DNA of 64,000 nt from a virus, in the IMG/VR virus record IMGVR_UViG_3300042482_000702, positions 11,355 to 75,354 of that record. The stretch is one strand, 5' to 3'. Made by a program: the position numbers and the translations under genes. Shown one piece after another: positions 32,468 through 64,000 of this stretch. Under the pieces are notes generated by a model, which was not told where the DNA came from, made no database searches, and worked only from the letters and a program-made list of their open reading frames with translations. Position 1 is the stretch's first letter. Every line of letters starts with the position of its first letter.

Positions 32468-32496
32468 CACATTTTTTTTAATACACAACTTTTTTT

Positions 32497-44497: not shown

Positions 44498-44564
44498 TTA
44501 TACCAACCATAGAAAGGGGTTGTTGGCTGAATGAGTATATAAATATGTTGTAAAATTAGAAAAG

Positions 44565-44990: not shown

Positions 44991-45002
44991 TTTATTAAAT
45001 TT

Positions 45003-45359: not shown

Positions 45360-45384
45360 AAAATGACCCATTATAGGTCATCTC

Positions 45385-46794: not shown

Positions 46795-46795
46795 A

Positions 46796-47743: not shown

Positions 47744-47745
47744 AA

Positions 47746-48105: not shown

Positions 48106-48148
48106 AATAAATCATTTAGTTATAAATATACAGAAAACAAAAAAGAGG

Positions 48149-49313: not shown

Positions 49314-49499
49314 TTACTCTTCTATAAGATTGATATCAGTCGGAATTGAATCCACATCTTCGTAAATACAATCACCCCAATCTTCCTCAAACTCATCCCA
49401 AAATTCATCCGGACTTTCTCTATATTGTTTTAATTCATCATCTGATAGTTCATACTCATAGATGAAATTTGTTGTCTCAATTTTTTGTAATTTTGCCAT
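49314..49499 (-). CDS. very acidic small protein (61 aa)
   Basis: ORF, Asp/Glu/Trp-rich. Confidence 0.35.
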   Translation of the reverse strand: MAKLQKIETTNFIYEYELSDDELKQYRESPDEFWDEFEEDWGDCIYEDVDSIPTDINLIEE

Positions 49500-49526
49500 T
49501 TTTTTATATTTAATTTTGTTTATTTT

Positions 49527-50021: not shown

Positions 50022-50023
50022 AT

Positions 50024-50251
50024 TTAATTTTGTTTATTTTCTAAATTTTCAATTCTACGATTAAGATACCATTGAGCTTTGAGTAAATCCTCCAATTCTT
50101 TCTCCGGATATTTCTTACCCGCCCTTGAGATATATTTCACCGTATTACCCAAATGAAAATCTAAAGACCAATTTTCTATCACCTTAATGGCTTCATATGG
50201 ATTATCTACTCCCCCATAATGCTCGGGGTTTTTTACCATTTCTTTACTCAT
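50024..50251 (-). CDS. DUF3310 family phage protein (75 aa)
   Basis: NPEHYGG...IE......FHLGNTVKYISRAGKK......DLLKAQWYLNRRI pattern of DUF3310. Confidence 0.55.
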   Translation of the reverse strand: MSKEMVKNPEHYGGVDNPYEAIKVIENWSLDFHLGNTVKYISRAGKKYPEKELEDLLKAQWYLNRRIENLENKQN

Positions 50252-50472
50252 AATTTTACTATATAATATTTACCTAATTTTATACTCTTTCTATAACCCT
50301 GTCTAACAGAAAACAATGGTTTTGTTGTTATTTTAAACCCAACCCCACTCTTACCTGAAATAAGATAAAACTGACTTTTAGATTTACCAATTAAGAGGGG
50401 AAAGTTAAATATTTTAATCACTGTTTGACTACAACCACTACCAATATGATATGTTTTTTTAGATAACCACAT
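50248..50472 (-). CDS. hypothetical protein (74 aa)
   Basis: ORF. Confidence 0.3.
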   Translation of the reverse strand: MWLSKKTYHIGSGCSQTVIKIFNFPLLIGKSKSQFYLISGKSGVGFKITTKPLFSVRQGYRKSIKLGKYYIVKL

Positions 50473-50641
50473 AAAACCCTTCTGCTATATTACTTTCTAC
50501 AATAATACCGGATTCTATTAAAAAATCCAGCTCTTTTTTTGTTTCTTCAATATTCTTTTTGAGAATATACTTTGAAATGTAGGTAATGTGGATTGGTTGT
50601 CTTAATTTACCAATCAAATTGTTAATTTGTTTTTCGTCCAT
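50459..50641 (-). CDS. hypothetical protein (60 aa)
   Basis: ORF. Confidence 0.3.
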   Translation of the reverse strand: MDEKQINNLIGKLRQPIHITYISKYILKKNIEETKKELDFLIESGIIVESNIAEGFYVVI

Positions 50642-50822
50642 AATTAAATTTTTCTTTAATTTTATCTTCTGTTAATCCTTTCATATACCATTTATAAACT
50701 TTAGATGATATTTTATCCGACAGAATTAACATATCCGATTTAAACAACAAAGTTAAACCTAAATTATTATTAAAACAATTTTTTACCGATTTTTTATCAA
50801 TTATTTTTTTGTTAAATCCCAT
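50622..50822 (-). CDS. hypothetical protein (66 aa)
   Basis: ORF. Confidence 0.3.
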   Translation of the reverse strand: MGFNKKIIDKKSVKNCFNNNLGLTLLFKSDMLILSDKISSKVYKWYMKGLTEDKIKEKFNYGRKTN

Positions 50823-51592
50823 TAAGACAATAATCTTTTATTTTGTTTTCCACTTTGATTTATATATGCTAATATTTTCCTTTTAAAGATTGGTATTAAT
50901 GTTTCCTCTAATGGAAAAATATCACTACAAAAAACTTCAAATAATGGATGTGATTCTTCATTATTCTTTTCATAAGTTTTAGAAAATTTAGATATAATTT
51001 GGGGAATTGTCAAATCGTCTTGGACTCCTTCATAAACTAATTTTAACGATGTTTTAGTTTGGTTTTTTGTTTTGTAAATTTTTCTTGTAGTATATTGCCA
51101 AATATATAATTTATCCGGTAATTTGTAGTAAAAAAACCCTGACTTGTTTGATAAATTATTTTTGTTTTTTTTCACAACAACATCTATGGAATCATAAACA
51201 ATACTCCAAATAGATTTTGCAAAATTAAAATAGTCGTATAATTGGGGTTGGCTATTTTTTAAAATTTTTCGGTATTCAATTACCTCTTCATCCGCTAGCA
51301 CGGGAATATCTTTAACTTTTAAATCTGAAAAAATTAATTCATCATCTTTTGATGATAATTTTCTATCAATATAAAGTATTTTGTTTTGAGTTAATAAAGT
51401 TTGCATATTACCCAAATGTAATGAAAGCTCAATAAACATTGGGTAAACCTCCATTTTCTCTAGATGTTTATTCATCTTTTGAAAATAGTCTAATAAAACA
51501 TATTGTTTCTGTTCCGCGTCAAGGACACCATCGAATAACCAATCGGTATTCATTATAAATGATGTCTTTTTATTTTTTTGTTTCTTTTCCAT
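50822..51592 (-). CDS. hypothetical protein (256 aa)
   Basis: ORF. Confidence 0.5.
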   Translation of the reverse strand: MEKKQKNKKTSFIMNTDWLFDGVLDAEQKQYVLLDYFQKMNKHLEKMEVYPMFIELSLHLGNMQTLLTQNKILYIDRKLSSKDDELIFSDLKVKDIPVLADEEVIEYRKILKNSQPQLYDYFNFAKSIWSIVYDSIDVVVKKNKNNLSNKSGFFYYKLPDKLYIWQYTTRKIYKTKNQTKTSLKLVYEGVQDDLTIPQIISKFSKTYEKNNEESHPLFEVFCSDIFPLEETLIPIFKRKILAYINQSGKQNKRLLS

Positions 51593-51641
51593 ATATTATT
51601 ATATTAATTATATGAAAATATATTAAAGAAATGAATAGTTT

Positions 51642-53000
51642 TTAATTAACTCTCATAACATAATATCTAGTATTGTTAACAACTACATCATCATATGTAC
51701 CATCGTATCCATTCATCACACCCCAACCATCTTCATCAACTAATCCTTGAGCTAAAGCATCTTTATCAATATAATCCTCAATACTTAATCCAAAATCACT
51801 CATATAAGATGTAATATCATTCTCAACATCTTTTAACATTGAGTCTACCTTATTATCAATCATATCTTGGGATGGTTCCATATCAACCTCAATATTATCT
51901 AATTCTTCTTGAAGATATTCTATGTGGTCTTGTGTTTGTTCATATTCTGTTGAATCCGAATCATCCATAATTATTAATCTTTCTTTATATTCTTCAATTT
52001 CAGATTCAAGTTGTTCTTTCCTTTCTTCTTGTTCTGAGGTTAACTCAAAATCATCATCACTAAAATAGACATCCGGTTCGTTAGCTATATCATTTTCATA
52101 AAAATCTCTAAAATAATCAAGAACCTCATCTTCATTAATATAACCATCAATAAAACCACTTCTAAAACCCTCAACACCCATATCATCAACTAAATTTTTT
52201 GAGTATTCTAATGCCGAAGTTTCCATCTCATCTTCTGTACCAACAGAATATTCTCTACCTTTAAATCCTGGTAGTAAAACCTCAAATTGGGATAAACCAT
52301 AATAACTGTAATTACCAGGGTACATATCATAAACATCCGCAACATCTTCTGTTAACCCATCAATTTCTTCTTGAATTTCCTCAATAGTATTTAATATTTC
52401 AACATTTTCATCGGGGTCACCTTCTCTATCTTTATCTTCATACTGAGCTTCAAGGTCTTCTTTCTTTTTTATTAATACCGATAATTTTTCTTTATCATCC
52501 TCATCTAAAACTTTTACATCACCCTCTTGGTCTAAATATTCTAATAACGCTTGAGCCTTCATACCTAACTCGTCTTCTTTTTCAAGATTCCAATCATCAC
52601 CATTTCTATATTCATTCATGGTTTCTTTCATCTTATTTAACTCCTCCAATTCTCGTCTTTTTTCTCGAGGTGAACCGTAATCACTAATATAACCTTTAAC
52701 TTTCGTATTTGATACATCAGACACACTAGTACGACTAATATCTAAATTTCCGTCAATATATCCAATATTACCCAATGAAGTTGTTGGTGTATTTGCAAGA
52801 TTTAAATCACCGGTTATCCATATTGGTTTTCCACCAAATTTTTTAAGATTCGTGACAGAATTACCGTTGTAACTAGTTAAAACCATTAAGTCCGTATATT
52901 CTTTAGGCGTCATTTTATAATAATCATCCTCAACTTGTTCAACAATTGTTTTAATAAAACGATATAACCCTTCTTCCGTAAGTCTAATTTTTCTACTCAT
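51642..53000 (-). CDS. large acidic hypothetical protein with MSRKIRLTEEGLYRFIK leader (452 aa)
   Basis: Long ORF; Asp/Glu-rich. Confidence 0.55.
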   Translation of the reverse strand: MSRKIRLTEEGLYRFIKTIVEQVEDDYYKMTPKEYTDLMVLTSYNGNSVTNLKKFGGKPIWITGDLNLANTPTTSLGNIGYIDGNLDISRTSVSDVSNTKVKGYISDYGSPREKRRELEELNKMKETMNEYRNGDDWNLEKEDELGMKAQALLEYLDQEGDVKVLDEDDKEKLSVLIKKKEDLEAQYEDKDREGDPDENVEILNTIEEIQEEIDGLTEDVADVYDMYPGNYSYYGLSQFEVLLPGFKGREYSVGTEDEMETSALEYSKNLVDDMGVEGFRSGFIDGYINEDEVLDYFRDFYENDIANEPDVYFSDDDFELTSEQEERKEQLESEIEEYKERLIIMDDSDSTEYEQTQDHIEYLQEELDNIEVDMEPSQDMIDNKVDSMLKDVENDITSYMSDFGLSIEDYIDKDALAQGLVDEDGWGVMNGYDGTYDDVVVNNTRYYVMRVN

Positions 53001-53089
53001 AATAATAAATATGTAAAATTAAAAAAAAATCTTTACATATTACCATTATAACAGATATTTATTGATATAAACATTTAAAAAAATATATC

Positions 53090-53236
53090 ATGGGATGCGG
53101 TTGCAAAGGAAATTCGAATCAAACACAAACAACACAACAAACGAGCCAGTCTCAACCTAAAGCTCCTGAGCCAAAAACTCAGCCTATACAAGAGTCAATT
53201 CGTAAAGTTGTTGAGAAATATTATAATAAAAAATAA
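53090..53236 (+). CDS. small Gln/Thr-rich peptide starting MGCGCKG (48 aa)
   Basis: Short ORF in otherwise empty 340-bp gap. Confidence 0.25.
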   Translation: MGCGCKGNSNQTQTTQQTSQSQPKAPEPKTQPIQESIRKVVEKYYNKK

Positions 53237-53337
53237 TATTTATTGTGTTAAAAATCTGAGGGACTTTATGTCCCTTTTTTTATTTTCTATTTAGAATTAA
53301 TATAATTTTAATTATTAATTGGTATAAGTCTAAAATT

Positions 53338-54162
53338 ATGAAATATATTAACGAAAAATCAAACAGAGGTATTGTGAATTTATTCTCCGATTACCTATTA
53401 AAAGAATTAACTAAAGAAAATAATATTGATGCAGTTATAGAAGTAACCGATTGTGGTAAATTTTTTATTGTTAATGGATTAACTAATTCAAATAAGATAT
53501 TAGATATGACTAAATTAAAATCTTCTTTCTTGGAAGAATATAAAGAACTATTATCTGAATTTGGTTATACACAAATAAATATTATTGATGTAATCACTTA
53601 TGGTCAAGAATTAGTTAAAAAATCTGAATATACTTATAATTTTTATGATTCAGTTAGACCAATATATTCACAATCAATCATTGATTATGTATCGAATGAT
53701 ACTCAAGGATTAAAATACCACTCTATTTCTGATACTAATGGTTTAACCCTTGAATTAGATTATTCTGAAGAGAATACTAAAGATTTAACAACTTTTAATT
53801 ATTCACCTTTAAACATCACATCCGAATTCCCACACGGATATAGTTTAGATATGGGTAGATTAGAATTTTATTATTCAGAATATATTGCCAATCACTTATT
53901 TTGTCATTCAATCACCGATAAAATACAATTCAAATATTCTAACATTAAAAATAATGATGACGATTACATGATTAACATTAATACAACATCTGTCCATAAT
54001 AATGAATCTATCATTTCAATGGTATTAGATGTGTTTGATTTTGATATGTTGAAATTTAAATCTACAATAAAATCATATGATATAATTGGGGACTTAACAA
54101 AACCTTTTGATAAAAAACCTTGGTTAATAAAAGACCGTATAAAAGATTTGGTTATATTTTAA
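53338..54162 (+). CDS. hypothetical protein (274 aa)
   Basis: ORF. Confidence 0.5.
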   Translation: MKYINEKSNRGIVNLFSDYLLKELTKENNIDAVIEVTDCGKFFIVNGLTNSNKILDMTKLKSSFLEEYKELLSEFGYTQINIIDVITYGQELVKKSEYTYNFYDSVRPIYSQSIIDYVSNDTQGLKYHSISDTNGLTLELDYSEENTKDLTTFNYSPLNITSEFPHGYSLDMGRLEFYYSEYIANHLFCHSITDKIQFKYSNIKNNDDDYMININTTSVHNNESIISMVLDVFDFDMLKFKSTIKSYDIIGDLTKPFDKKPWLIKDRIKDLVIF

Positions 54163-54256
54163 CTAATTAGGAAAACAGGTATCTAATTTTACAAAGACAC
54201 CTTTAAGACCAACATCAGTACTGTCAGTATACCCACCATAATTATCCAATATATAA

Positions 54257-55687
54257 TTATTGGATACAAACCACATCTCGATAAGTTGCGATGTCAGCAG
54301 CACCATTAAAAATACCAGCAGCGTTTGCACCAGTTGTTGGTGATAATACAGTAATATTAGTTACAGTATTAACATTATTAACAGATATTATAGGACCCAT
54401 AAATAAAATATTTCCATCAGATAACGCAGAAATTTTATTTGAGGGGAACCATTCATTTGTTGGTTCGTTTCTATATGATGCAAATGTAGTCCAAGTTCCG
54501 TCATTTAAACCAGTAGTTAATACTCTAGCAATACCAGTTTTTGTACCCACCAGAGTTCCCACCTGTGTGAATTTACCCGCAAGAATAACTTTTCCTCCTT
54601 GACCAGGTTGGTCTAACATAGAAGTAATTGGCCCATTGCACTGTGGATACCAACTAGTGTCTAAAACACCAGCAGCACTAAGTCTAACAGGATTTAATCC
54701 TGTAGAATTAAGACTACCTACCCCAGTAAATGAAGTAGTCCCTGTGTAACCAATCATAATTCTATTATTATTGTCTAACTGCATACAGGTTATACTACCT
54801 AAACCATCATTAGTTCTCGGGAAGACTGCGACATTAGAAGATGCAAAACTAGTATCGATTACACCATTTGCAGTAAGCTTTAGGATTCCACCATATGGGT
54901 TAAGAAAATTTCCAGCAACCAATATGCTCTGTTGGTCATTAGGTTGGACTAGAACAATCTTAACTGTCCCATTTACGGAATAAAATCCACTAGAGGCAAA
55001 TGAAGTATCGGTACTTCCATTAACATTTAATCTAGCAACGTATCCAGCACCAGTAGTAGTAGTGGTTGTTACGGTATTGACATACCCACCTAAAATAAGT
55101 TTACCATCTGATTGAGTATCAACTGATAGAATTGTATAAGGGAATGAAGAGGCACCAGAAAAAGTATAATCTTTACTACCATCAGGATTTAACCGAATAA
55201 TTCTCTGTATTGTTACCCCATCGTATGACGTTACAGTACCTACAACAACTATTTTACCATTAGATTGTTTAACAATTGACATTGGACCCGGAACTCCTTC
55301 AGCAGTCGGAAAAACAGACCCAAAATTAAACCCACTCCCAACATTAAAAGTTCTATCAAGACTTAAATTATTCGTTAATTTTACTATACCTACTGAAGAT
55401 GACCCAGAATAATTACTGAAAGTACCAATAATAATAGGACCTTGTGAAAACACTAAACTATAATCTTGGGATGGTGATGTGCTACAAGTACCTAAAGGCA
55501 CCACATACCCTCTAACTATCGAAGATGTAGTAGTATATGTGTATCCTGTCAATAATTGACCTTTAGTTATATTTGATGCTAATAGGATTGGTGTGGTACT
55601 AGTACCAGTATATCCAAATAAGTTAAATGCTGATACGGCGTATGAAGACCCCGAATATTCCGCTTGTAATGTAAATCTAATATCCAT
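54257..55687 (-). CDS. Ser/Thr/Gly/Val-rich beta-rich protein, probable virion fibre/adhesin component (476 aa)
   Basis: Composition and position next to fibre genes. Confidence 0.45.
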   Translation of the reverse strand: MDIRFTLQAEYSGSSYAVSAFNLFGYTGTSTTPILLASNITKGQLLTGYTYTTTSSIVRGYVVPLGTCSTSPSQDYSLVFSQGPIIIGTFSNYSGSSSVGIVKLTNNLSLDRTFNVGSGFNFGSVFPTAEGVPGPMSIVKQSNGKIVVVGTVTSYDGVTIQRIIRLNPDGSKDYTFSGASSFPYTILSVDTQSDGKLILGGYVNTVTTTTTTGAGYVARLNVNGSTDTSFASSGFYSVNGTVKIVLVQPNDQQSILVAGNFLNPYGGILKLTANGVIDTSFASSNVAVFPRTNDGLGSITCMQLDNNNRIMIGYTGTTSFTGVGSLNSTGLNPVRLSAAGVLDTSWYPQCNGPITSMLDQPGQGGKVILAGKFTQVGTLVGTKTGIARVLTTGLNDGTWTTFASYRNEPTNEWFPSNKISALSDGNILFMGPIISVNNVNTVTNITVLSPTTGANAAGIFNGAADIATYRDVVCIQ

Positions 55688-55715
55688 AATTATAAATATT
55701 TGTTATTTGTATAAA

Positions 55716-55757
55716 AGTTTAAGTTTAGTTGTTAATTGTTTAAGTTTAGTTGTTAAT
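55716..55757. repeat. tandem 21-bp repeat GTTTAAGTTTAGTTGTTAATT x2
   Basis: Read directly in intergenic spacer. Confidence 0.5.
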
Positions 55758-55800
55758 TTGAACATCGATTCTATATTCACATGACACCGAACTCATATCC
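55745..55800. repeat. extragenic copy of the 42-bp unit that is tandemly repeated inside gene 55815..58712
   Basis: ACATCGATTCTATATTCACATGACACCGAACTCATATCCTGAA vs intragenic units at 56458-56660. Confidence 0.5.
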
Positions 55801-55814
55801 TGAATATCATATTT

Positions 55815-58712
55815 TTATCTATAATCTTTTATTAATCTTACCGAGTAACCCCATTTCTTATTCTGCCATGACCGATTCAAATCACCACCACCATTAGTAC
55901 TAAGGTTTCGGTAATAGGCTCCATTAGCATCGAACTCGAACTGTGACGAACTCCACCAGTTACCTACTTCTCCCATAGTAGTAAACACCCCAATGTCCAT
56001 TCGCTCCCCTCCTGGAAGACCTGTCCACCCACTTTCGTTAGTAGCATTAGAATTAGGGTATTGCCAAAGTCCAGTGCCGAGTTGTTGTACTGGGTTACCT
56101 GTCGGACCCAATGGGCCCGTTCCTGTTGATTTCATTTTCCCTTTTGGACCATTTAATATAGGTGGTCCACTTAAACAGACTCCAAATGTATCCCATTCGT
56201 CATTTGTAGGAACGTGATAACCTAATGGAGCTAATCCTCTTGAATCATTTACCGCAAACCAGTTGTATAGTTTGCCATAGATAGGTCCGTTAGATGATAA
56301 GTTTAAATAATAAGACCAAGCACCTACCCCACTGTTACCATAATTTATCCATTCTGTATTAGTAGTTGCTTGGAATATAGTATCTCCATTTCTATAAGTA
56401 GTTACTTCGAGGTTTTTGGCTTCCCATATTAAATTGAATGGGGCACAATTGCAACTAACGTCAATTCTATATTCACATGAATAAATAGGTGATGTCTCCT
56501 GAACATCAATTCTATATTCACACGAATAAATAGGTAATATCTCCTGAACATCAATTCTATATTCACATGCCGCCGAACTCATATCCTGAACATCAATTCT
56601 GTATTCACATGCCGCCGAACTCATATCCTGAACATCAATTCTATAGTCACAATAAGAAAAGTTTAGAGAAGCATTTAAACAACTAGGTATTTGAGATGCT
56701 CCTAAAATATTAATATTATTAATATCTCGAACATAAACCACATCATATGGCGGATTTTGATTAATAATATATAATTTATTTGGAGATGTGCTAGATTCAG
56801 TTATGTAAATATTTCCATTGTCTTCAAAAAGACCATAAGTTGCACAACCAATATTTACTAGTTGAACATCAACTTCCGGAATACCACCTGTTAAATAATC
56901 CCATTGAGTTATATAACAATACCTTATAACCTCAAACTCATCCTCCACCTCTACATAATTAAGTGCTATGAATTTATTTGTTGTTGTTTTATAAAAATCT
57001 CCAGTTATTCCAGATTGGGAAATGTTTGATATTGGCCTATTAATGACCATTGGAAATTTAGTTGTCATAACAGGACTTCCACCTGACACATCAATCTCAA
57101 CAACTTCGTCAGGATTAGTAAAAGTATTTACAGCCAAAATCACAGTATTTGAAATTGCCGCCAAACCTGCTGATGAAGTAAAACCAACTGGAAAATCTAT
57201 GAATCTAAAAAATGTTGCCGTAAATGATGGTAAGGTTATATTATACTCAACAAATGATGTTCCGGAAATACCCCAAAGTTTACCCGTTGTTCCATTAAAT
57301 GAATGAGCAATATCAACACTATTATTTGGAAAATTTGGTACTGTTAACAGTGTTAAGGTGTTTACAGAAGCATTATAAGCATAAACATTAGAACCAGCAT
57401 TAAACAATACAGCGCAAGTTGATACAACAGAATTACTAGTTTGTGTTGGTGTTTGTGTTGGGGTTTGTGTTGGTGTTTGGGTTGGTGTTGGTGTTCGAGT
57501 TGGTGTTTTAGTTGGCGATGGTGATGGACAAATCACGTCCACACAGTTATCTTTTTTACTTGAGTCTAAAATCGAAAATGACGCAACATCGTAATATGCC
57601 CCATCAAATGAAGTTATTTGTATAATATAATTGATTCCATTTTGGTTGAAGATATACCATTTTCCAACCGTTAATTCTTCACTATTACTCATATTACCAC
57701 CACCATATGGGAAAGTACAATCTGAACATTGACGTAATGATATACTATATAACCAATATGTATAAGGTTTTGTAGATGTTGGTGTTTGTGTTGGTGTTTT
57801 AGTTGGTGTTTGTGTTGGTGTTTTAGTTGGTGTTTGTGTTTGAGTTTGTGTAGGTGTTGGTGTTTTAGTCGGTGTTTGAGTTGGAGTTTGTGTTGGTGTT
57901 GGAGTTTGTGTTGGTGTTGGAGTTTGTGTTTGTGCTGGTATTCCCGAATTTGAACATATTGACAATAAAGCCCCAGCTAGACCTCCATCCCCCGAAATTG
58001 TTAATGACGTAAAATTAACCGAATTATTAATTAAAAATTTACCCCCTCCACCGGTAGCACCAGCACCTTGTCCAGATAATATTTGGTTACCTATTATTGT
58101 ACTGAAACAACTTTCCGAAGACGAAATTGATGGGATTCCACTTCCCGTATTAGTAGTAAATATAAAATTCTCATTACCCCCTCCTCCTGTTGCCGTTAAG
58201 AAAACTATAATACCGTTAACTGATGCACTAAAATTCATCGTATAAGTAAAAGCTCCACTTGCACCTAAATATATTGAGTTTATAGGTGTGGTTACAGTTC
58301 CACAACTTGTATAAGCAGGTCCGTAATTTGATACACTACCTGTTCGAATATCAGTAATAACAACACCATTTATTGTTGTTGGTGGAACAACGCTGCTCAC
58401 ACAATTTAATATCACACTTGTTGATGTTGGAGTTGGCGTATTTGTTGGTGTTGGTGTTTTAGTTGGAGTTTGTGTTGGGGTTTGGGTAGGTGTTTTAGTT
58501 GGTGTTTGTGTATTTGTTGGTGTTAGTGTTGGTGTTTTAGTTGGTGTTTGAGTTGGTGTTTTAGTCGGTGTTTGTGTTTGAGTTTGTGTAGGTGTTTGCG
58601 TAAATTGTAATAAAACACCATTAATTCTAATGGTGTTTGGTATAGGATTATTGTTGGCTTTTTTCATAGAAGCCAACGATACATCATCAAATTTTTTAAG
58701 TAATTGTGTCAT
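55815..58712 (-). CDS. large secreted/virion protein with (TQTP/TKTP)n linkers and C-terminal Fib_succ_major-type domain (965 aa)
   Basis: Three long PT-rich linkers; C-terminus GKLYNWFAV...GYHVPTNDEW...GYSVRLIKDYR resembles TIGR02145 (Fibrobacter succinogenes major paralogous domain). Confidence 0.6.
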   Translation of the reverse strand: MTQLLKKFDDVSLASMKKANNNPIPNTIRINGVLLQFTQTPTQTQTQTPTKTPTQTPTKTPTLTPTNTQTPTKTPTQTPTQTPTKTPTPTNTPTPTSTSVILNCVSSVVPPTTINGVVITDIRTGSVSNYGPAYTSCGTVTTPINSIYLGASGAFTYTMNFSASVNGIIVFLTATGGGGNENFIFTTNTGSGIPSISSSESCFSTIIGNQILSGQGAGATGGGGKFLINNSVNFTSLTISGDGGLAGALLSICSNSGIPAQTQTPTPTQTPTPTQTPTQTPTKTPTPTQTQTQTPTKTPTQTPTKTPTQTPTSTKPYTYWLYSISLRQCSDCTFPYGGGNMSNSEELTVGKWYIFNQNGINYIIQITSFDGAYYDVASFSILDSSKKDNCVDVICPSPSPTKTPTRTPTPTQTPTQTPTQTPTQTSNSVVSTCAVLFNAGSNVYAYNASVNTLTLLTVPNFPNNSVDIAHSFNGTTGKLWGISGTSFVEYNITLPSFTATFFRFIDFPVGFTSSAGLAAISNTVILAVNTFTNPDEVVEIDVSGGSPVMTTKFPMVINRPISNISQSGITGDFYKTTTNKFIALNYVEVEDEFEVIRYCYITQWDYLTGGIPEVDVQLVNIGCATYGLFEDNGNIYITESSTSPNKLYIINQNPPYDVVYVRDINNINILGASQIPSCLNASLNFSYCDYRIDVQDMSSAACEYRIDVQDMSSAACEYRIDVQEILPIYSCEYRIDVQETSPIYSCEYRIDVSCNCAPFNLIWEAKNLEVTTYRNGDTIFQATTNTEWINYGNSGVGAWSYYLNLSSNGPIYGKLYNWFAVNDSRGLAPLGYHVPTNDEWDTFGVCLSGPPILNGPKGKMKSTGTGPLGPTGNPVQQLGTGLWQYPNSNATNESGWTGLPGGERMDIGVFTTMGEVGNWWSSSQFEFDANGAYYRNLSTNGGGDLNRSWQNKKWGYSVRLIKDYR
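56458..56665. repeat. 5 tandem copies of a 42-bp (14-aa, CEYRIDVQDMSSAA) in-frame repeat
   Basis: ACATCAATTCTATATTCACATGCCGCCGAACTCATATCCTGA repeated head-to-tail. Confidence 0.6.
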
Positions 58713-58722
58713 TTATTTAAAT

Positions 58723-61700
58723 TTACAGTACCTCGACCCAACTATTATCCGGACAGAAATATATTATGTCGTTTGTTGCATCAGTACAATAACCAATGAT
58801 TCGAACATTATTACCCGATACAGGTGGAGATATTGAACTGAACTCTCCAGCAGTTGTTGATACATATAGTATAGAACCTAAAGTCGCTGAGGTAAATGAT
58901 GTTGTACTAAATTTAGCATAACCTCTTAATAACATTCCACCAGCAATTGTTGTCCCTAACGCCATACCTAATAATCCTAATGATGTAACAACTGTTGTTG
59001 CATCTGCCAATGTCCAAGTCCCACCAGTACTATAATAATAAACTGACCCGGCAGTTAATGATGTACCTACACCAAAATAAACAACTTCTCCCGCACCTCC
59101 GTTATTAACAGGTACTGTAAATATTTTATTTTTTTCAATGTTAAGATTATTAACAAATGTTGTGTTACTTCTGTTTGCAGTAATATTACTACCTATAATG
59201 TTAGAATTATTAAAGGAAGATGGAATTCTATTATATGTACCACCAAGGATTGATGATAAAGACGCACAAGCCCAATTTCCATTACCAGCACCAACGAATG
59301 AACAATAACCAACAGCACAGTTTTGGTCACCACCACCAATAAATGAACCTTTTTTACCACAGTTAATTGAACCACCCGCAATTGTTGTACAAGAATCACT
59401 TACACTATTACGAAATCCACCACCAATGAATGACCGTACCCCATAAGCACAATTTGACCAACCACCACCTATTGTTGAATTGACCCCTGACGCTATATTA
59501 TTTATATTAGGATACGTACTAGAGTAATATTCATTATACCCACCTCCAATAAAACTTCCTGCTCCTCTGGCAATATTATGTTGGCCTCCTCCAATTGTTG
59601 AAGAGTATCCGAAAGATTTATTCAAACGTCCACCACTAACTGTTGAGGTAAATCCCGTCGCAATATTACCTACACTTCCCATCATAGGGAAATAACCTGG
59701 GGAACTTGTATTTCCAGTAACTTTAAATCCACCACCACCACCAATTGTAGAATAATTTCCAGAAGCAATATTCCCACTACCCCCACCTATTGTAGAATGA
59801 CAACCACAAGTAACATTACAAATACCACCACCAATAACAGACCCACAGGCGTTAGCTGTGTTCCCAATACCACCACCAATAAATGAAGAATTTCCACCAC
59901 CTAAACTTTTTGTTAAATTCCTAACTAATGGTTCATTTCCAATTCCAAATACTTGAACCGAGCCTGTTGCTCCGGTAACGTTTATATCGGTATATCCAAT
60001 GTAAGACCCAGAGGTATAAGTCGAAGCTGTTACAACAACATTTCTCGAACAAGCGTTATTATCAAAAGTTAATAATAAGTCATTAGTTGTAAAACAACTA
60101 GTTAAATTCCCAATAAACCTTAATGAACAATTTCCAATAACAATAGAAGATTGTATTTTTGGTGAATTACCCACCATATTTAAAACACCTCCAGCAATAC
60201 CACCTTGGTATCCACAAACAACATTCACATGTCCACCACCTACAAAGGTCATATTAGTAGCCGATTTATTATTATTACCTGAAACTATCCCTGAACCATA
60301 ACCACACGCATAATTACCACAACCACCTAAAATAGCCGCTCTAGTACGAAAAGTTTTATTAGAAAGACCACCAGCAATAACCGCATCTTCACCACATTGA
60401 CTAGTCGTTCCTGTTATAATATTACATCTACCACCACCAATAGTTGACATAGTAGTTGAAATAAGATTAACTCTACCCCCAACAATTGATGAGAATGTCC
60501 CCCCACTAAGTACACGGTTATAAAATCCACCACCAATTGTTGAATCTCCTCCAAACGCTCTATTACAACTACCACCACCAATGAATGATAATGTTCCACA
60601 AGTACAATTTAACCAACCACCACCTATGGTTGAGCTATTACCGCAAGCTCTATTTAGACGACCTCCACCAATTGTTGAACAAGTACTAACAATACAGTTT
60701 GAACATCCCCCACCAATAGATGAATAACAGGAAGAAATTTTATTATAACAACCACCACCAATAGATGAATACCTATTACCGACACAGTTAGATTTTCCAC
60801 CACTAATAGTTGAACCAATAACATTCATCACTGTATTACAACAACCACCACCAATAGTCGATGTATCACCAAACGCTTTGTTTAAAACACCACCACCAAC
60901 TGTTGAATTGCTCTGGGTAGTACAATTTGAATTACCACCACCAATAAATGACCCTTCACCATTTGCTTTATTATTATTACCACCACCAATGAATGAACAA
61001 TTTCCCTTTGCATAGTTTTTAAATCCACCCGCAATTGTTATATTCTTACCACCATCAGTAATTGTTGACCTATTTATAAAATATAATTCACCAAATGTTG
61101 TCCCAACATTATTTTGAAGGTTTACCAGAGTAACATCATAATAACTTGGATATCCAGTATTTGATAGAACAATAGAGTCAACATCGGATTGAATCGTTTT
61201 TCCGTAATTTGGGTTATACGATAAAATATTATTTCCAATGGTAAAATATGGTGATACGTCACCATAAAAATATAAAGTAGCATAATTAGTTTTATAAGGA
61301 TTACCTATAAAAATTGTTTGTTGACCCACAACATTTAATACACCACCCCCTATAGTCGATGAACAACCTTGTATTGTATTTCCTTGACCACCTAATATTG
61401 TAGAATTTTTACATTTTATTTGATTAAGATATCCTCCCAAAATATTTGATGTTGTTCCTGAAGCAATATTACCTTGACCACCAACAACAACAGATGCATA
61501 CCCAAATGCTATATTAGTCTTATATCCACTATAGGTACGTCCTCCACCACCAACGAATGATAATGTTCCTGAAGCAATATTACAATTACCACCACCAACT
61601 GTTGATAGAGAACCTGATGCTTGGTTACGATAACCACCACCAATTGTTGACCGATAATTAGAAGCTGTATTACACTGACCACCACCGACTGTTGAATAAC

Positions 61701-64000
61701 GTAGTGTCGCACAGTTTTTATCGCCTCCACCGATTGTTGTATAACTATTAGATGCGATATTACCTCGACCACCACCGATTGTTGCAAAATCTCCAGAAGC
61801 AGTATTACCATAACCATACCACCCTCCATTATTAAAACACTTACCACCACCACCAATTGTTGAACTAACACCGGAAGCTTTGTTATGACCACCACCACCA
61901 ATTGTTGAGGTACTACCGGAAGCAATGTTATAACCACCTCCACCTATTGTTGACCGATAAGTAGAAGCAGTATTATTTTCACCACCACCAATTGTTGTCC
62001 AATAGGCTGAAGCTTTATTACAAACACCCCCACCAACAGTAGAGTTTAAACCTCCGGATTTATTACAAGTTCCACCACCAATTGTTGAACCATAACCATA
62101 ACTATTATTACACTTACCACCACCTATTGTTGCTCGAGGATTTGAAGCTGAATTATTTTCACCACCTCCAATTGTTGTATAGTAACCTGTTGCGCAGTTC
62201 CTAAAACCACCACCAATGGTTGACAATACACCAGAATTAAAACAAATCGTAGTTCCAGTTAATAGACCTGTTGAATAAGTAAATGTTCCTCCGGAAGTAT
62301 TATGCCCAATACCTCCACCAATTGTCACACCTAAAGATTTATTTTCATTAGGTAATGATTGAATTACATTTCTATGTCCTCCACCAATAAATGACATTCT
62401 TGCGTTTGTTGTATTACGATAACCACCAACAACTGTTGAATAAGTCCCACTACTAATATTACATTTCCCTCCTAAAGACGCTGAATAATTCCCTATTGAA
62501 GTATTCAAAACACCACATCTAACAGACGAACAAGTACCACCACCTAATACAATGACTGGAGGTTCAGGACTTGTTCCGCTAGTCCCCGCAGAACCAGTTG
62601 CTCCACTAGTCCCTGACGAACCATTTACTCCACTAGTTCCTGACGAACCATTTACTCCACTAGTTCCTGATGTTCCTCTAGTTCCTGACGAACCTGACGA
62701 ACCTGTCGCTCCACTAGTTCCTGACGAACCTGTCGCTCCACTAGTTCCTGACGAACCATTTACTCCACTAGTTCCTGACGAACCTGTTGCCCCACTAGTT
62801 CCTGACGAACCATTTACTCCACTAGTTCCTGACGAACCATTTACTCCACTAGTTCCTGACGAACCTGTCGCTCCACTAGTTCCTGATGTTCCTGTTGCCC
62901 CACTAGTTCCTGATGTTCCTCTAGTTCCTGACGAACCTGACGAACCATTTGCTCCACTAGTCCCTGACGAACCATTTACTCCACTAGTTCCTGACGAACC
63001 TGTTGCTCCACTAGTTCCTGATGTTCCTCTAGTTCCTGACGAACCTGACGAACCTGTCGCTCCACTAGTTCCTGACGAACCTGTCGCTCCACTAGTTCCT
63101 GACGAACCATTTACTCCACTAGTTCCTGACGAACCTGTTGCCCCACTAGTTCCTGACGAACCTGTTGCCCCACTAGTTCCTGACGAACCATTTACTCCAC
63201 TAGTTCCTGACGAACCTGTCGCTCCACTAGTTCCTGACGAACCATTCGCTCCCGATGTTCCTGATGTTCCTCTATTTCCTGACGAACCTGACGAACCTGT
63301 TGCACCACTAGTTCCTGACGAACCTGTTGCACCACTAGTTCCTGACGAACCATTTGCTCCCGATGTTCCTGACGAACCATTTGCTCCCGATGTTCCTGAC
63401 GCTCCACTAGTTCCCGATGAACCTGTTGCTCCCGATGTTCCTGACGCTCCACTAGTTCCCGATGAACCTGTTGCTCCCGATGTTCCTGACGAACCATTTG
63501 CTCCCGATGTTCCTGACGCTCCACTAGTTCCCGATGAACCTGTTGCTCCCGATGTTCCTGATGAACCTGTTGCTCCCGATGTTCCTGACTCTCCACTAGT
63601 TCCCGATGTTCCTGACTCTCCACTAGTTCCCGATGAACCTGTTGCACCACTAGTTCCTGATGAACCTGTTGTTCCACTAGTTCCTGACGCTCCACTAGTT
63701 CCTGACGAACCTGTTGTTCCACTAGTTCCTGACGCTCCACTAGTTCCTGACGAACCATTTGCTCCCGATGTTCCCGATGAACCTGTTGCTCCCGATGTTC
63801 CTGACGAACCATTTGCTCCCGATGTTCCTGACGCTCCACTAGTTCCCGATGAACCTGTTGCTCCACTAGTTCCTGACGAACCTGTTGCTCCCGATGTTCC
63901 TGACGCTCCACTAGTTCCTGATGAACCTGTTGCACCACTAGTTCCTGATGTTCCGGATGAACCACTAACACCTGAAGTTCCACTAGAACCATTTGCTCCT
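58723..64000 (-). CDS. giant fibre protein: N-terminal collagen-like Gly-X-Y domain fused to a >1200-aa IGGG beta-helix repeat array (partial; N-terminus beyond window)
   Basis: Gly-X-Y collagen-like frame (GTSGVNGSSGTSGAT...) stays open from 64000 down to the annotated start at 62508, which is a TTG (Leu) codon in that same frame; ~40 x S-T-I-G-G-G-x-x-N-x-A repeats in 58723-62508. Confidence 0.7.
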   Translation of the reverse strand, partial: GANGSSGTSGVSGSSGTSGTSGATGSSGTSGASGTSGATGSSGTSGATGSSGTSGASGTSGANGSSGTSGATGSSGTSGANGSSGTSGASGTSGTTGSSGTSGASGTSGTTGSSGTSGATGSSGTSGESGTSGTSGESGTSGATGSSGTSGATGSSGTSGASGTSGANGSSGTSGATGSSGTSGASGTSGATGSSGTSGASGTSGANGSSGTSGANGSSGTSGATGSSGTSGATGSSGSSGNRGTSGTSGANGSSGTSGATGSSGTSGVNGSSGTSGATGSSGTSGATGSSGTSGVNGSSGTSGATGSSGTSGATGSSGSSGTRGTSGTSGATGSSGTSGVNGSSGTSGANGSSGSSGTRGTSGTSGATGTSGTSGATGSSGTSGVNGSSGTSGVNGSSGTSGATGSSGTSGVNGSSGTSGATGSSGTSGATGSSGSSGTRGTSGTSGVNGSSGTSGVNGSSGTSGATGSAGTSGTSPEPPVIVLGGGTCSSVRCGVLNTSIGNYSASLGGKCNISSGTYSTVVGGYRNTTNARMSFIGGGHRNVIQSLPNENKSLGVTIGGGIGHNTSGGTFTYSTGLLTGTTICFNSGVLSTIGGGFRNCATGYYTTIGGGENNSASNPRATIGGGKCNNSYGYGSTIGGGTCNKSGGLNSTVGGGVCNKASAYWTTIGGGENNTASTYRSTIGGGGYNIASGSTSTIGGGGHNKASGVSSTIGGGGKCFNNGGWYGYGNTASGDFATIGGGRGNIASNSYTTIGGGDKNCATLRYSTVGGGQCNTASNYRSTIGGGYRNQASGSLSTVGGGNCNIASGTLSFVGGGGRTYSGYKTNIAFGYASVVVGGQGNIASGTTSNILGGYLNQIKCKNSTILGGQGNTIQGCSSTIGGGVLNVVGQQTIFIGNPYKTNYATLYFYGDVSPYFTIGNNILSYNPNYGKTIQSDVDSIVLSNTGYPSYYDVTLVNLQNNVGTTFGELYFINRSTITDGGKNITIAGGFKNYAKGNCSFIGGGNNNKANGEGSFIGGGNSNCTTQSNSTVGGGVLNKAFGDTSTIGGGCCNTVMNVIGSTISGGKSNCVGNRYSSIGGGCYNKISSCYSSIGGGCSNCIVSTCSTIGGGRLNRACGNSSTIGGGWLNCTCGTLSFIGGGSCNRAFGGDSTIGGGFYNRVLSGGTFSSIVGGRVNLISTTMSTIGGGRCNIITGTTSQCGEDAVIAGGLSNKTFRTRAAILGGCGNYACGYGSGIVSGNNNKSATNMTFVGGGHVNVVCGYQGGIAGGVLNMVGNSPKIQSSIVIGNCSLRFIGNLTSCFTTNDLLLTFDNNACSRNVVVTASTYTSGSYIGYTDINVTGATGSVQVFGIGNEPLVRNLTKSLGGGNSSFIGGGIGNTANACGSVIGGGICNVTCGCHSTIGGGSGNIASGNYSTIGGGGGFKVTGNTSSPGYFPMMGSVGNIATGFTSTVSGGRLNKSFGYSSTIGGGQHNIARGAGSFIGGGYNEYYSSTYPNINNIASGVNSTIGGGWSNCAYGVRSFIGGGFRNSVSDSCTTIAGGSINCGKKGSFIGGGDQNCAVGYCSFVGAGNGNWACASLSSILGGTYNRIPSSFNNSNIIGSNITANRSNTTFVNNLNIEKNKIFTVPVNNGGAGEVVYFGVGTSLTAGSVYYYSTGGTWTLADATTVVTSLGLLGMALGTTIAGGMLLRGYAKFSTTSFTSATLGSILYVSTTAGEFSSISPPVSGNNVRIIGYCTDATNDIIYFCPDNSWVEVL

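What the first reader, a model, noticed from the sequence alone, without database searches (positions are those of the whole stretch)
58723..64000. Giant collagen-like plus IGGG beta-helix fibre protein; ORF track mis-frames the collagen segment
Translating the minus strand upstream of the annotated start at 62508, which is a TTG (Leu) codon, the same frame stays open to the window edge. It encodes perfect Gly-X-Y triplets (GTSGVNGSSGTSGATGSAG...) built from 9-bp units. The track ORF 63192-63992 (QELVERQEH...) is an off-frame shadow. The protein is therefore longer than 1750 aa: a collagen-like stalk followed by ~40 repeats of S-T-I-G-G-G-x-x-N-x-A-x-G that probably form a parallel beta-helix, giving a long tail fibre or whisker. 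The rigidly periodic 9- and 18-bp DNA repeats also make this a recombination and slippage hotspot.
Basis: seen in the sequence. Interest (0 to 1): 0.6.

Follow-up and report, generated by a model that had tools for sequence, protein, structure and literature searches.

The report
Giant collagen-plus-beta-roll phage fibre gene
The window ends inside a real gene of more than 1758 codons for a very long, probably three-chain fibre of a large bacteriophage (a collagen-like rope, then adhesin-type beta-roll segments, then a conserved tip), an unusually long and fast-changing example of a known kind of phage fibre.

Summary
On the minus strand, the frame of ORF 58723..62508 stays open to the window edge (1758 codons). 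Its first 477 residues are 159 uninterrupted Gly-X-Y triplets. ORF 63192..63992 is an off-frame shadow.

After the collagen-like array come about 46 strict 15-residue STIGGGxxNxAxGxx units in three blocks. A profile of these units matches the head of the Moraxella adhesin UspA1 (PDB 3PR7, E=3e-46). The AlphaFold model matches adhesin left-handed beta-rolls.

A neck and a 119-residue tip follow. The tip is 82-90% identical to the C-termini of fibre genes on IMG/VR phage contigs of up to 309 kb, and 48% identical to an annotated Flavobacterium phage tail fibre.

The closest of these phages are 91-95% identical in DNA next to the gene, yet their fibre genes differ greatly:
- lengths of 1459, 1596 and 2459 aa;
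- 0 to 406 collagen triplets;
- 23 to 61 roll motifs.

So this is a hypervariable mosaic gene, most likely for host adhesion. Two full-length relatives predict a 78-residue N-terminal domain beyond the window.

Not shown:
- attachment to the tail rather than the head;
- triple-helix formation, because the array has no proline and almost no charged residues.

Verdict: a new member of a known kind, of moderate interest.

The parts
62569..63999 (-). Collagen-like array: residues 1-477 of the part of the protein seen here. 159 uninterrupted Gly-X-Y triplets with the basic unit G[A/V][T/N/S]-GSS-GTS. The 5' end of the gene lies beyond the window.
   Evidence: composition: no Pro, 2 Glu, 4 Arg. (Pfam Collagen E=6e-61). 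(27-bp period). (differences concentrated at third codon positions, none in the GG of Gly).
62548..62568 (-). Short Pro-rich junction (PEPPVIV, residues 478-484) between the collagen array and the first roll.
   Evidence: The same SP(N/T)PPVI(I/V)LG junction occurs in orthologues L005 and L009, and a similar one in unrelated collagen-like fibre proteins P0158 and P0213.
61324..62547 (-). Beta-roll block 1 (residues 485-892): 15-residue STIGGGxxNxAxGxx turns.
   Evidence: 15-residue spacing. (profile against UspA1 head 3PR7, E=3.3e-46; LpIBP 3ULT, E=7e-7). (AlphaFold pLDDT above 90 for residues 587-827). (Foldseek hits: 3pr7, 7o23, CbpF, AtaA).
62200..62427 (-). Conserved 76-residue module inside block 1 (residues 525-600; NARMSFIGGGHRNVIQS...STIGGGFRN).
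   Evidence: found in 16 of the top homologues, usually in 2-4 copies; 70% identical in L010 and L012.
61045..61323 (-). Insert 1 (residues 893-985): a non-repeat segment between roll blocks 1 and 2, and an orphan sequence.
   Evidence: No homologue among 156 relatives, in 1.84 billion representative proteins, or in the closest orthologues. Weakly similar to insert 2 (29% identity).
60169..61044 (-). Beta-roll block 2 (residues 986-1277).
   Evidence: 48-51% identical to roll segments of L005, L007 and L009.
59905..60168 (-). Insert 2 (residues 1278-1365): a non-repeat segment between roll blocks 2 and 3.
   Evidence: 65-77% identical in orthologues L005, L007 and L009. 75-81% identical at DNA level.
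59203..59904 (-). Beta-roll block 3 (residues 1366-1599).
59083..59202 (-). Roll cap / neck (residues 1600-1639; SNIIGSNITANRSNTTFVNNLNI...).
   Evidence: Conserved at the end of roll segments in 14 homologues. 75-83% identical in orthologues.
58726..59082 (-). C-terminal tip domain (residues 1640-1758): an all-beta globular domain.
   Evidence: 48% identical to the C-terminus of the Flavobacterium phage immuto tail fibre protein. 82-90% identical in IMG/VR orthologues. AlphaFold pLDDT about 90. The fold recurs in 58 phage fibre-like proteins in BFVD.
58723..58725 (-). TAA stop codon of the fibre gene. The next gene starts 10 nt downstream.
63192..63992 (-). Shadow ORF (QELVERQEH...), not a gene: the neighbouring frame of the collagen repeats.
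63006..63162 (-). 157-bp exact internal duplicate, copy 1. Copy 2 is at 62655-62811, offset 351 bp.
   Evidence: (D1: 62571-62870 against 62922-63221, 94% identical).
55815..58712 (-). Downstream gene, probably co-transcribed, encoding a 965-aa protein. It has a conserved 35-residue N-terminus, Pro-Thr linkers and a C-terminal Fib_succ_major lectin-like domain. Together with the fibre gene it forms the variable island.
   Evidence: (same N-terminus after the fibre homologue on L004). (only 65-67% DNA identity to relatives, against 91-95% for the flank).

Best explanation
The region is the 3' 5.3 kb of one gene for a very long, modular fibre of a large phage. The phage's host is probably in the Bacteroidota.

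Architecture, N- to C-terminus:
1. An N-terminal anchor domain that lies outside the window. It is predicted from two full-length orthologues to be about 78 residues beginning MRLTDRLLATG...
2. At least 159 Gly-X-Y triplets, which most likely form a collagen-type triple helix about 137 nm long.
3. Three segments of a 15-residue-per-turn left-handed beta-roll, homologous to the head of trimeric autotransporter adhesins such as UspA1. There are about 46 turns, or about 22 nm. In the solved adhesin heads three such rolls pack around a threefold axis.
4. Two roughly 90-residue inserts between the roll segments.
5. A neck.
6. A conserved beta-rich tip domain.

Inferred mechanism. The trimeric roll and tip register three chains, and the collagen segment zips up from them. 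The assembled rope-and-head fibre, at least 170 nm long, reaches out from the virion and binds the host surface through the tip, possibly also through the roll faces and inserts.

Inferred evolution. Its 27-bp and 45-bp repeat structure lets recombination lengthen, shorten and reshuffle the shaft, while the two ends stay conserved.

Shown: the reading frame, the domain homologies, the fold of the roll and the tip, and the hypervariability among close relatives.
Inferred: trimer and triple-helix formation, virion and tail attachment, the adhesion function, and the host.
For: FRAME AND COLLAGEN ARRAY.

ROLL:
- A profile of block 1 and its homologues hits the UspA1 head (3PR7) at E=3.3e-46, 3NTN at 1.4e-10 and the grass ice-binding roll 3ULT at 7e-7.
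- The AlphaFold model has pLDDT above 90 over 16 turns.
- Its best Foldseek hits are the trimeric autotransporter heads UspA1, BpaC, CbpF and AtaA.
- Homologues carry Pfam UspA1_rep, LbR_Ice_bind and Peptidase_S74, and some are named 'tail fiber domain-containing protein'.

TIP:
- 48% identical to the C-terminus of an annotated tail fibre of Flavobacterium phage immuto, which is encoded near the sheath, baseplate hub and tape-measure genes.
- Tip homologues have N-terminal parts that hit tail-fibre and tail-collar PHROGs.
- The fold recurs in 58 long phage proteins, several of them named tail fibre-like or collagen-repeat proteins.

PHAGE CONTEXT: head maturation protease, GIY-YIG family phrog_20046, tRNA nucleotidyltransferase and methyltransferase. 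The orthologues lie on IMG/VR viral contigs of 15-309 kb.

HYPERVARIABILITY:
- The flank is 91-95% identical to L005-L009. Within the fibre gene, the tip and neck are 82-84% identical, the region around insert 2 is 75-81%, and the rest is 63-70%.
- Orthologue lengths are 1459, 1596 and 2459 aa, with 0 to 406 triplets and 23 to 61 roll motifs.
- There is a 157-bp exact internal duplicate.

PROLINE-FREE GXY ARRAYS ARE A RECURRING, CONSERVED FEATURE of small phage fibre-like proteins. 97 of the 120 best matches are proline-free, and several end in Peptidase_S74.

HOST HINT: the Bacteroidota-type TAnnTTTG motif lies upstream of 11 of 70 ORFs, against about 5 expected, and the tip resembles that of a Flavobacterium phage.
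Against: - No recognised tail or baseplate gene lies near the fibre gene, either in the window or in the relatives' loci. The neighbours are adhesin-like proteins (Fib_succ_major, DUF285, DUF5122), so tail attachment is not shown.
- The best solved-structure matches of the tip are weak (E=7e-3) and are capsid decoration proteins.
- The GXY array has neither of the two stabilising features tabulated for characterised bacterial and viral collagens: Pro in X, and Asp/Glu with Lys/Arg pairs. Triple-helix formation is therefore an inference.
- Only monomer models were possible.
- The 'tail fiber' label of the immuto protein is an annotation, not an experiment.
- The N-terminus is missing.
- Exact repeats of up to 157 bp mean the repeat count could be mis-assembled from short reads.
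Confidence: 0.7

Rival explanations
1. The Gly-X-Y array is not a collagen triple helix. It is a flexible, possibly O-glycosylated Ser/Thr/Gly tether, and its strict period is a by-product of amplifying a 27-bp unit. The rest of the fibre would be as described.
For: There is no proline, and only 6 charged residues in 318 X/Y positions. Characterised viral and bacterial collagens are rich in Pro at X and in charged pairs. Only 27 distinct 9-mers occur among the 159 triplets, and long near-identical segments show recent amplification.
Against: Gly is never replaced, while the first two bases of the X and Y codons changed 18 times. The same proline-free GXY pattern is kept across many diverged phage fibre-like proteins with different flanking domains and across orthologues whose arrays differ in length. 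It is always followed by a domain expected to be trimeric. A plain linker needs no strict period.
Confidence: 0.2
2. It is a head (capsid) fibre. The C-terminal domain would be a trimeric decoration-protein-like anchor seated on the capsid, with the roll and collagen pointing outward and the N-terminal domain distal.
For: The best solved-structure matches of the tip model are capsid decoration or stabilising proteins: phage Adjutor 8saj (E=7e-3, probability 0.99), TW1 5wk1, Sf11, Borrelia phage BB1 and YSD1. A BB1 decoration protein is also the third-ranked, non-significant sequence hit. The gene is not in a recognisable tail module.
Against: The matches are weak (TM-score at most 0.5). The same tip sits at the C-terminus of proteins whose N-terminal parts hit tail-fibre and tail-collar families. 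It also sits on an annotated tail fibre encoded beside tail genes. Both ends of the gene are conserved, as expected for one anchoring end and one binding end, but conservation does not show which end is which.
Confidence: 0.1
3. It is not a virion component. It would be a phage-encoded adhesin exported to the surface of the infected cell, as part of an island of adhesin-like genes.
For: The neighbours here and in relatives carry domains typical of Bacteroidota surface proteins: Fib_succ_major, DUF285 leucine-rich repeats, a DUF5122 propeller and Pro-Thr linkers. The roll is homologous to bacterial adhesin heads. Many roll homologues lie on megabase-sized contigs.
Against: The C-terminus has no autotransporter membrane anchor and no type IX secretion signal (no such Pfam hit). 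The N-terminus of orthologues (MRLTDRLLATGVTVNDL...) does not look like a signal peptide (judged by eye). The tip family is found in phage fibre-like proteins.
Confidence: 0.08

Closest known systems
Head domain of the Moraxella catarrhalis trimeric autotransporter adhesin UspA1 (PDB 3PR7, 3NTN; Pfam UspA1_rep PF18792). Also the related YadA-like heads of BpaC, CbpF and AtaA.
   Same: The same 15-residue repeat (UspA1...GRYSTIGGGxxNxAxG...). Profile E=3.3e-46, 33% identity in the structural alignment, and a left-handed parallel beta-roll.
   Different: No C-terminal membrane-anchor barrel and no coiled-coil stalk. It is encoded by a phage and preceded by a collagen-like array. The roll is split into three blocks by inserts and is rich in Cys (48 Cys, mostly at positions 8 and 10 of the repeat). 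The protein itself scores below the Pfam cut-off for UspA1_rep (16 bits against 27).
Prophage-encoded collagen-like side-tail-fibre proteins of E. coli O157:H7 (EPclA and EPclB; Ghosh et al. 2012, PMC3368898).
   Same: A phage-borne trimeric fibre protein with a Gly-X-Y domain and a C-terminal trimerising globular domain. The triple helix of the EPcl proteins was demonstrated experimentally.
   Different: The EPcl collagen domains have 48% Pro at X and many charged pairs. Here there is no Pro and almost no charge, and the array is much longer. The non-collagen domains are unrelated.
Uncharacterised fibre genes of related IMG/VR phage contigs: L009:2999-10378 (2459 aa) and L005:5588-10378 (1596 aa).
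   Same: Orthologous position, with flanking DNA 91-95% identical. The tip is 88-90% identical, the neck 75-77% and insert 2 65-77%. They share the same collagen-to-roll junction motif and the same kinds of modules.
   Different: The number and order of modules differ. L009 has 406 triplets in five arrays separated by small globular domains. L005 has roll-neck-collagen-roll. Insert 1 and the single run of at least 159 triplets are specific to the window.
Tail fibre protein of Flavobacterium phage vB_FspM_immuto (QQO92141.1, 578 aa).
   Same: The C-terminal 125 residues are 48% identical (E=5e-31). It is encoded in a tail-gene region.
   Different: Its shaft has neither collagen repeats nor beta-roll repeats. 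It is one third the length.
Lolium perenne ice-recrystallisation-inhibition protein (PDB 3ULT; Pfam LbR_Ice_bind PF21300).
   Same: A left-handed beta-roll of 14-15 residues per turn with the xxNxAxG half-repeat. Profile E=7e-7. Many homologues hit PF21300.
   Different: It is a monomeric 118-residue plant protein with an ice-binding face. Nothing here supports ice binding.

Membership tests
Collagen triple-helix repeat proteins (Pfam PF01391) | Uninterrupted (Gly-X-Y)n that scores above the family's gathering threshold. | tested here: met
   159 consecutive triplets. 202 bits against a cut-off of 27.2.
Collagen triple-helix repeat proteins (Pfam PF01391) | X/Y composition of characterised triple helices: Pro (or Hyp) and/or Asp/Glu with Lys/Arg pairs. 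| tested here: not met
   0% Pro, 2 Glu and 4 Arg in 318 X/Y positions. Viral collagens have 22% Pro and 35% Asp/Glu at X, and 38% Arg/Lys at Y.
Collagen triple-helix repeat proteins (Pfam PF01391) | Three chains wound in a polyproline-II triple helix. | not testable with these tools
   Only monomer prediction was available. This needs CD, melting, EM or a multimer prediction.
Trimeric autotransporter adhesins (TAA) | Head made of YadA/UspA1-type left-handed parallel beta-roll repeats. | tested here: met
   Profile against 3PR7, E=3.3e-46. Foldseek top hits are UspA1, BpaC, CbpF and AtaA.
Trimeric autotransporter adhesins (TAA) | C-terminal YadA-type membrane-anchor beta-barrel. | tested here: not met
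   No Pfam anchor hit in the 1281 C-terminal residues, even at E up to 10. The C-terminus is a phage fibre tip domain.
Trimeric autotransporter adhesins (TAA) | N-terminal signal peptide and a coiled-coil stalk. | tested here: inconclusive
   The N-terminus is outside the window. The orthologues' N-terminus does not look like a signal peptide by eye. No helical segment appears in either model.
Phage tail fibres | Encoded in a phage genome. | tested here: met
   Phage-family genes are present in the window. The orthologues lie on IMG/VR viral contigs.
Phage tail fibres | Homology to a fibre protein of a characterised phage. | tested here: met
   The tip is 48% identical to the immuto 'tail fiber protein'. 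That name is an annotation, not an experimental result.
Phage tail fibres | Gene located in the tail or baseplate module. | tested here: not met
   No tail or baseplate PHROG or Pfam hit among the neighbours, either in the window or in L005, L009 and L014.
Phage tail fibres | Present in virions and attached to the tail. | not testable with these tools
   Needs proteomics or EM.
Endosialidase-type fibres with a C-terminal intramolecular chaperone (Peptidase_S74, PF13884) | C-terminal S74 auto-cleaving chaperone domain. | tested here: not met
   Present in many roll and collagen homologues but absent here.
Grass-type ice-binding beta-roll (LbR_Ice_bind, PF21300) | Pfam match above threshold, and ice-binding activity. 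| tested here: not met
   The protein itself has no PF21300 hit. Only the profile-level similarity to 3ULT was found. Activity is not testable.

The most novel reading that the evidence does not exclude
The proline-free, almost uncharged Ser/Thr/Ala/Asn Gly-X-Y array may really fold into a triple helix at least 137 nm long. So may the hundreds of similar arrays in phage fibre-like proteins, which reach 406 triplets in a close relative. That would define a class of collagen stabilised by something other than imino acids or salt bridges, such as side-chain or water hydrogen-bond networks, or glycosylation. Here such a helix would be used as a length-adjustable rope carrying an adhesin-type head.
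Probability: 0.4. Interest if true: 0.55.

Novelty: new member of a known kind. Interest (0 to 1): 0.37.

Why it matters
- It corrects a gene call. One gene of more than 5.3 kb replaces a 1261-aa ORF plus a spurious 266-aa ORF.
- It documents a fibre that joins two trimeric building blocks usually discussed apart: a collagen-like helix and an autotransporter-adhesin beta-roll.
- Together with its IMG/VR relatives it gives a clean natural series. The flanks are nearly identical and the anchor and tip are the same, while the shafts range from 0 to 406 collagen triplets and from 23 to 61 roll motifs. This series is suited to studying how repeat-mediated recombination tunes fibre length and host range in large phages.
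- The proline-free collagen sequence is a testable case for collagen biophysics and for biomaterials.

Tried and rejected
EXTENDING PAST 64000.
- An exact 61-nt pattern from the collagen-roll junction was absent from viral, metagenome and genome contigs.
- The neighbouring protein is not on record.
- Megablast of 44000-64000 against phages found nothing.
- The true start could therefore not be read, only predicted from orthologues.

STRUCTURE AND HOMOLOGY SEARCHES THAT GAVE LITTLE.
- The first AlphaFold job (residues 1366-1758) gave pLDDT below 50 for the roll, because its alignment covered only the tip. A second job with trimmed roll homologues worked.
- A profile of the tip against PDB sequences gave nothing significant.
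- A Pfam scan of the tip at E up to 10 gave nothing credible.
- Insert 1 against 1.84 billion representatives gave only two spurious repeat hits.
The single-protein query succeeded.

IDEAS TESTED AND DROPPED.
- Diversity-generating retroelement: no template/variable repeat pair was found in the window.
- Invertase-driven fibre switching: the only invertase gene is about 49 kb away (9253-9987), and no inverted repeat lies near the fibre.
- Stop-codon recoding: the long ORFs do not lengthen when TAG or TGA is read through, and 60 of 72 ORFs of at least 120 aa end in TAA.
- Sigma-70 promoter and terminator scans were uninformative.
- Ice binding was considered because of the 3ULT and PF21300 similarity, but nothing supports it.
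Full report
OBSERVATION

On the minus strand, the frame of the listed ORF 58723..62508 has no stop between 63999 and 58726. This gives 1758 sense codons ending in TAA at 58723-58725. The listed start at 62508 is a TTG that encodes Leu inside ...SSVRCGVLNTSIG.... An ORF caller picks it only because no ATG, GTG or TTG occurs further upstream in this frame within the window.

Residues 1-477 (window 62569-63999) are 159 uninterrupted Gly-X-Y triplets. They score 202 bits (E=6e-61) on Pfam Collagen.

ORF 63192..63992 (QELVERQEH...) is the neighbouring frame of the same DNA and meets stops downstream. I compared the 159 nine-base units with the six commonest units. Of the 81 differences, 63 lie on third codon positions of the GXY frame, none on the GG of glycine, and 18 on the first two bases of the X and Y codons. 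The GXY frame is therefore the one under purifying selection, and glycine is the most constrained residue.

Self-identity is 78% at a 27-bp offset, but only 50% at 9 bp and 53% at 18 bp. Tandem Repeats Finder reports period 27 (53 copies) with 45- and 72-bp variants. The amino-acid unit is G[A/V][T/N/S]-GSS-GTS.

ANATOMY OF THE REST OF THE PROTEIN

A short PEPPVIV junction follows the collagen array. After it, the motif [IVL][GAS]GG recurs 49 times, overwhelmingly at exactly 15-residue spacing. The consensus is S-T-I-G-G-G-x-x-N-x-A-x-G-x-x, and 40 copies carry the canonical Asn.

The repeats form three blocks: residues 485-892, 986-1277 and 1366-1599. Two non-repeat inserts separate them, at residues 893-985 and 1278-1365. 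The two inserts are weakly similar to each other (29% identity).

Block 1 contains a 76-residue module (residues 525-600). This module recurs, usually in several copies, in 16 of the best homologues.

A cap (SNIIGSNITANRSNTTFVNNL...) and a 119-residue C-terminal domain end the protein. There are 48 cysteines in the 1281 non-collagen residues, mostly at the variable positions 8 and 10 that flank the Asn.

WHAT THE 15-RESIDUE REPEAT IS

The non-collagen part has more than 3600 database relatives. Many carry Pfam UspA1_rep, LbR_Ice_bind ('grass antifreeze beta roll'), Peptidase_S74, BppL_N or Mtd_N. The few that have names are called 'tail fiber domain-containing protein'.

A profile built from block 1 and 33 trimmed homologous segments gives these matches against solved structures:
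- the head of the Moraxella catarrhalis trimeric autotransporter adhesin UspA1 (3PR7), E=3.3e-46, which has the same STIGGGxxNxAxG repeat;
- 3NTN, E=1.4e-10;
- the Lolium perenne ice-binding roll (3ULT), E=7e-7.

With that alignment, AlphaFold2 gives pLDDT above 90 for 16 consecutive turns, residues 587-827. Foldseek ranks UspA1, BpaC, CbpF and AtaA first, all of them left-handed parallel beta-rolls of trimeric adhesins. Right-handed tailspike helices get negligible probability.

More precisely, it is the YadA/UspA1-type beta-roll. In the solved adhesin heads three such rolls pack around a threefold axis (established knowledge of that family). This fits a preceding three-chain collagen helix.

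The protein is not an autotransporter. It has no membrane anchor, and the protein on its own falls below the Pfam threshold for UspA1_rep. YadA-like similarity in marine phage tail fibres has been noted before (PMC3909814).

THE TIP

The last 125 residues are 48% identical (E=5e-31) to the C-terminus of the 578-aa 'tail fiber protein' of Flavobacterium phage vB_FspM_immuto. That protein is encoded among structural genes and close to the sheath, baseplate hub and tape-measure genes.

Thirty-six database proteins share the domain. Their N-terminal parts hit tail-fibre and tail-collar PHROGs. One of them (P0141) combines the tip with a proline-free GXY stretch.

The AlphaFold model of the domain is confident, with pLDDT about 90 and an all-beta fold. 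In BFVD it matches 58 phage proteins at E of 1e-3 or better. Most are 400-1400 residues long, and several are named tail fibre-like, collagen-repeat, Mtd_N or chaperone-domain proteins.

Against solved structures, the only matches are weak ones to capsid decoration or stabilising proteins: 8saj (E=7e-3), 5wk1, 9ocb, 8pkh and 6xgq. I keep a head-fibre reading as a rival for that reason.

RELATIVES AND WHAT LIES BEYOND THE WINDOW

The source contig is not in the searchable collections. A search with the tip found 13 IMG/VR loci on contigs of 15-309 kb.

Five of them (L005-L009) are close relatives of this phage. Window 46787-54205 is 91-95% identical to them in DNA. Inside the fibre gene, identity falls to 82-84% in the tip and neck, 75-81% around insert 2, and 63-70% elsewhere. 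The gene that follows the fibre is only 65-67% identical.

The orthologous genes differ greatly in architecture:

| Locus | Length | Collagen triplets | Roll motifs | Other features |
|---|---|---|---|---|
| L009 | 2459 aa | 406, in arrays of 81, 111, 141, 25 and 48 separated by small globular domains | 23 | |
| L005 | 1596 aa | 28 + 84, in the order collagen-roll-neck-collagen-roll-insert 2-roll-neck-tip | 37 | |
| L010-L014 | 1459 aa (1219 aa in L012) | none | 61 (45 in L012) | different N-terminus |
| L015 | 1934 aa | 315 | none | tip 54% identical |
| L016, L017 | 851 aa | none | none | tip 37-39% identical |

Conservation by segment is as follows:
- tip, 82-90% identical;
- neck, 75-83%;
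- insert 2, 65-77% in L005, L007 and L009;
- the 76-residue module, 70% in L010 and L012;
- rolls, 38-53%;
- insert 1, no homologue anywhere, including in 1.84 billion representative proteins.

L005 and L009 start with the same 78-residue N-terminal domain (MRLTDRLLATGVTVNDLIHIVKPYDTTQSPQGSSYKAE...GGTYFSAATTLELYDSTGGTVSITGF), followed directly by GXY. This is the best prediction for what lies upstream of position 64000.

The picture is a gene with conserved ends and a shaft that expands, contracts and reshuffles. The window's array also contains a 157-bp exact duplicate (63006-63162 and 62655-62811) and 300-nt segments that are 94% identical. It also warns that the repeat count may be uncertain in a short-read assembly.

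IS THE GXY ARRAY A TRIPLE HELIX?

For:
- The period is strict over 159 triplets, and Gly is never replaced.
- The same proline-free Ser/Thr/Ala/Asn-rich pattern is kept in many otherwise unrelated phage fibre-like proteins. 97 of the 120 best matches have under 2% Pro, and their runs reach 64 triplets.
- The array is always joined to a domain expected to trimerise.

Against:
- It lacks both features tabulated for experimentally characterised bacterial and viral collagens, namely Pro at X and acidic/basic pairs.

I put triple-helix formation at about 60-65%. At 0.288 nm per residue (the value cited in PMC3368898), the 477 residues would span about 137 nm. About 46 roll turns at about 0.48 nm per turn (general beta-sheet spacing, my own knowledge) add about 22 nm.

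CONTEXT

The window has 26-37% G+C outside the repeats and 47% in the collagen DNA. It carries these phage-family genes:
- head maturation protease, 1171-1905;
- GIY-YIG family phrog_20046, 10006-11712;
- tRNA nucleotidyltransferase, 42965-43702;
- DNA methyltransferase, 48149-49048;
- nuclease, serine invertase and integrase-like genes.

The best protein match for one of these genes (the GIY-YIG family protein at 10006-11712) is to a 636-kb uncultured phage. The standard genetic code applies.

A TTATCTTTGTA motif, containing the Bacteroidota -7 promoter element TAnnTTTG (my own knowledge), precedes several operons. It occurs upstream of 11 of 70 ORFs, against about 5 expected. Together with the Flavobacterium phage tip, this points to a Bacteroidota host, but the evidence is modest.

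The fibre gene is not in a recognisable tail module. Its neighbours, here and in the relatives, are large adhesin-like proteins with Pro-Thr linkers, Fib_succ_major, DUF285 and DUF5122 domains.

VERDICT

The thing is a giant, modular, hypervariable phage fibre that joins a collagen-like rope to adhesin-type beta-roll segments and a conserved tip.

Each module belongs to a known family, and modular fibres are a known kind. Close uncharacterised relatives exist in IMG/VR, one of them longer and richer in collagen. I therefore class it as a new member of a known kind, with moderate interest.

Open points:
- where on the virion it sits;
- whether the proline-free array is a true triple helix;
- what the orphan insert does.

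Noticed in passing
window 55759-55818 and 56457-56651 (gene 55815-58712, minus strand): The 965-aa downstream protein contains tandem CEYRIDVQDMSSAA units just before its C-terminal Fib_succ_major domain. Directly after its TAA stop the same frame reads KYDIQDMSSVSCEYRIDVQINN*, another copy of that unit (87% DNA identity). The lectin-like domain is therefore flanked by direct repeats, like an exchangeable cassette.
   Followed up: partly
window 54257-55687 (minus strand): A 476-aa DUF5122 beta-propeller gene lies between the 965-aa gene and the conserved flank. It is absent from the otherwise 91-95% identical relatives L005-L009, so it appears to be an insertion specific to this genome.
   Followed up: partly
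window 54644-54732 (minus strand): ARAGORN calls a tRNA-Leu(taa) here. It lies inside the DUF5122 coding sequence and no Rfam family reaches its gathering score, so it is probably a false positive.
   Followed up: yes
window 55815-58712; L004:665-1906; L009:10391-13414: The gene after the fibre keeps a conserved 35-residue N-terminus (MTQLLKKFDDV...RINGVLL) followed by Pro-Thr linkers, while the rest of the protein varies. The L009 version carries DUF285 repeats and an N-terminal Fib_succ_major domain. This may be a second variable adhesin with a conserved docking peptide.
   Followed up: partly
window, e.g. 32458-32506, 38891-38955, 42585-42649, 42916-42964: A repeated ACAAAGATAA element (reverse complement TTATCTTTGT, containing TAnnTTTG) lies upstream of minus-strand genes. 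The motif occurs upstream of 11 of 70 ORFs, against about 5 expected. It looks like a Bacteroidota-type promoter.
   Followed up: partly
window 3300-3351, 5682-5733, 6130-6181, 7269-7320, 24038-24089; also 8237-8296 and 11755-11814: Families of G/C-rich hairpins (AAAACCCCCAC...GTGGGGGTT) sit in AT-rich intergenic DNA and are probably terminators. A 60-nt element that is 90% conserved flanks the recombinase and GIY-YIG gene cluster.
   Followed up: no
window 8240-11712: A cluster of an integrase-like fragment (8240-8881), a serine DNA invertase (9253-9987) and a 568-aa GIY-YIG/DUF285 protein with internal repeats of about 150 nt (phrog_20046, E=3e-81). It looks like a mobile or homing-endonuclease island.
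   Followed up: no
L009:17852-19759 versus window 48149-49048: The DNA methyltransferase is 299 aa in the window but 635 aa in the relative L009. The extra part weakly matches ribonucleotide reductase and thymidylate synthase PHROGs, which suggests an intein or a fused domain in the relative.
   Followed up: no
L002:5991-7754 and L003:3024-4787: In the contig that carries the roll homologue P0009, the gene just upstream encodes an Ice_binding (PF11999) protein and another neighbour has SprB-like repeats. This is a different adhesin-like neighbourhood for the same roll family.
   Followed up: no
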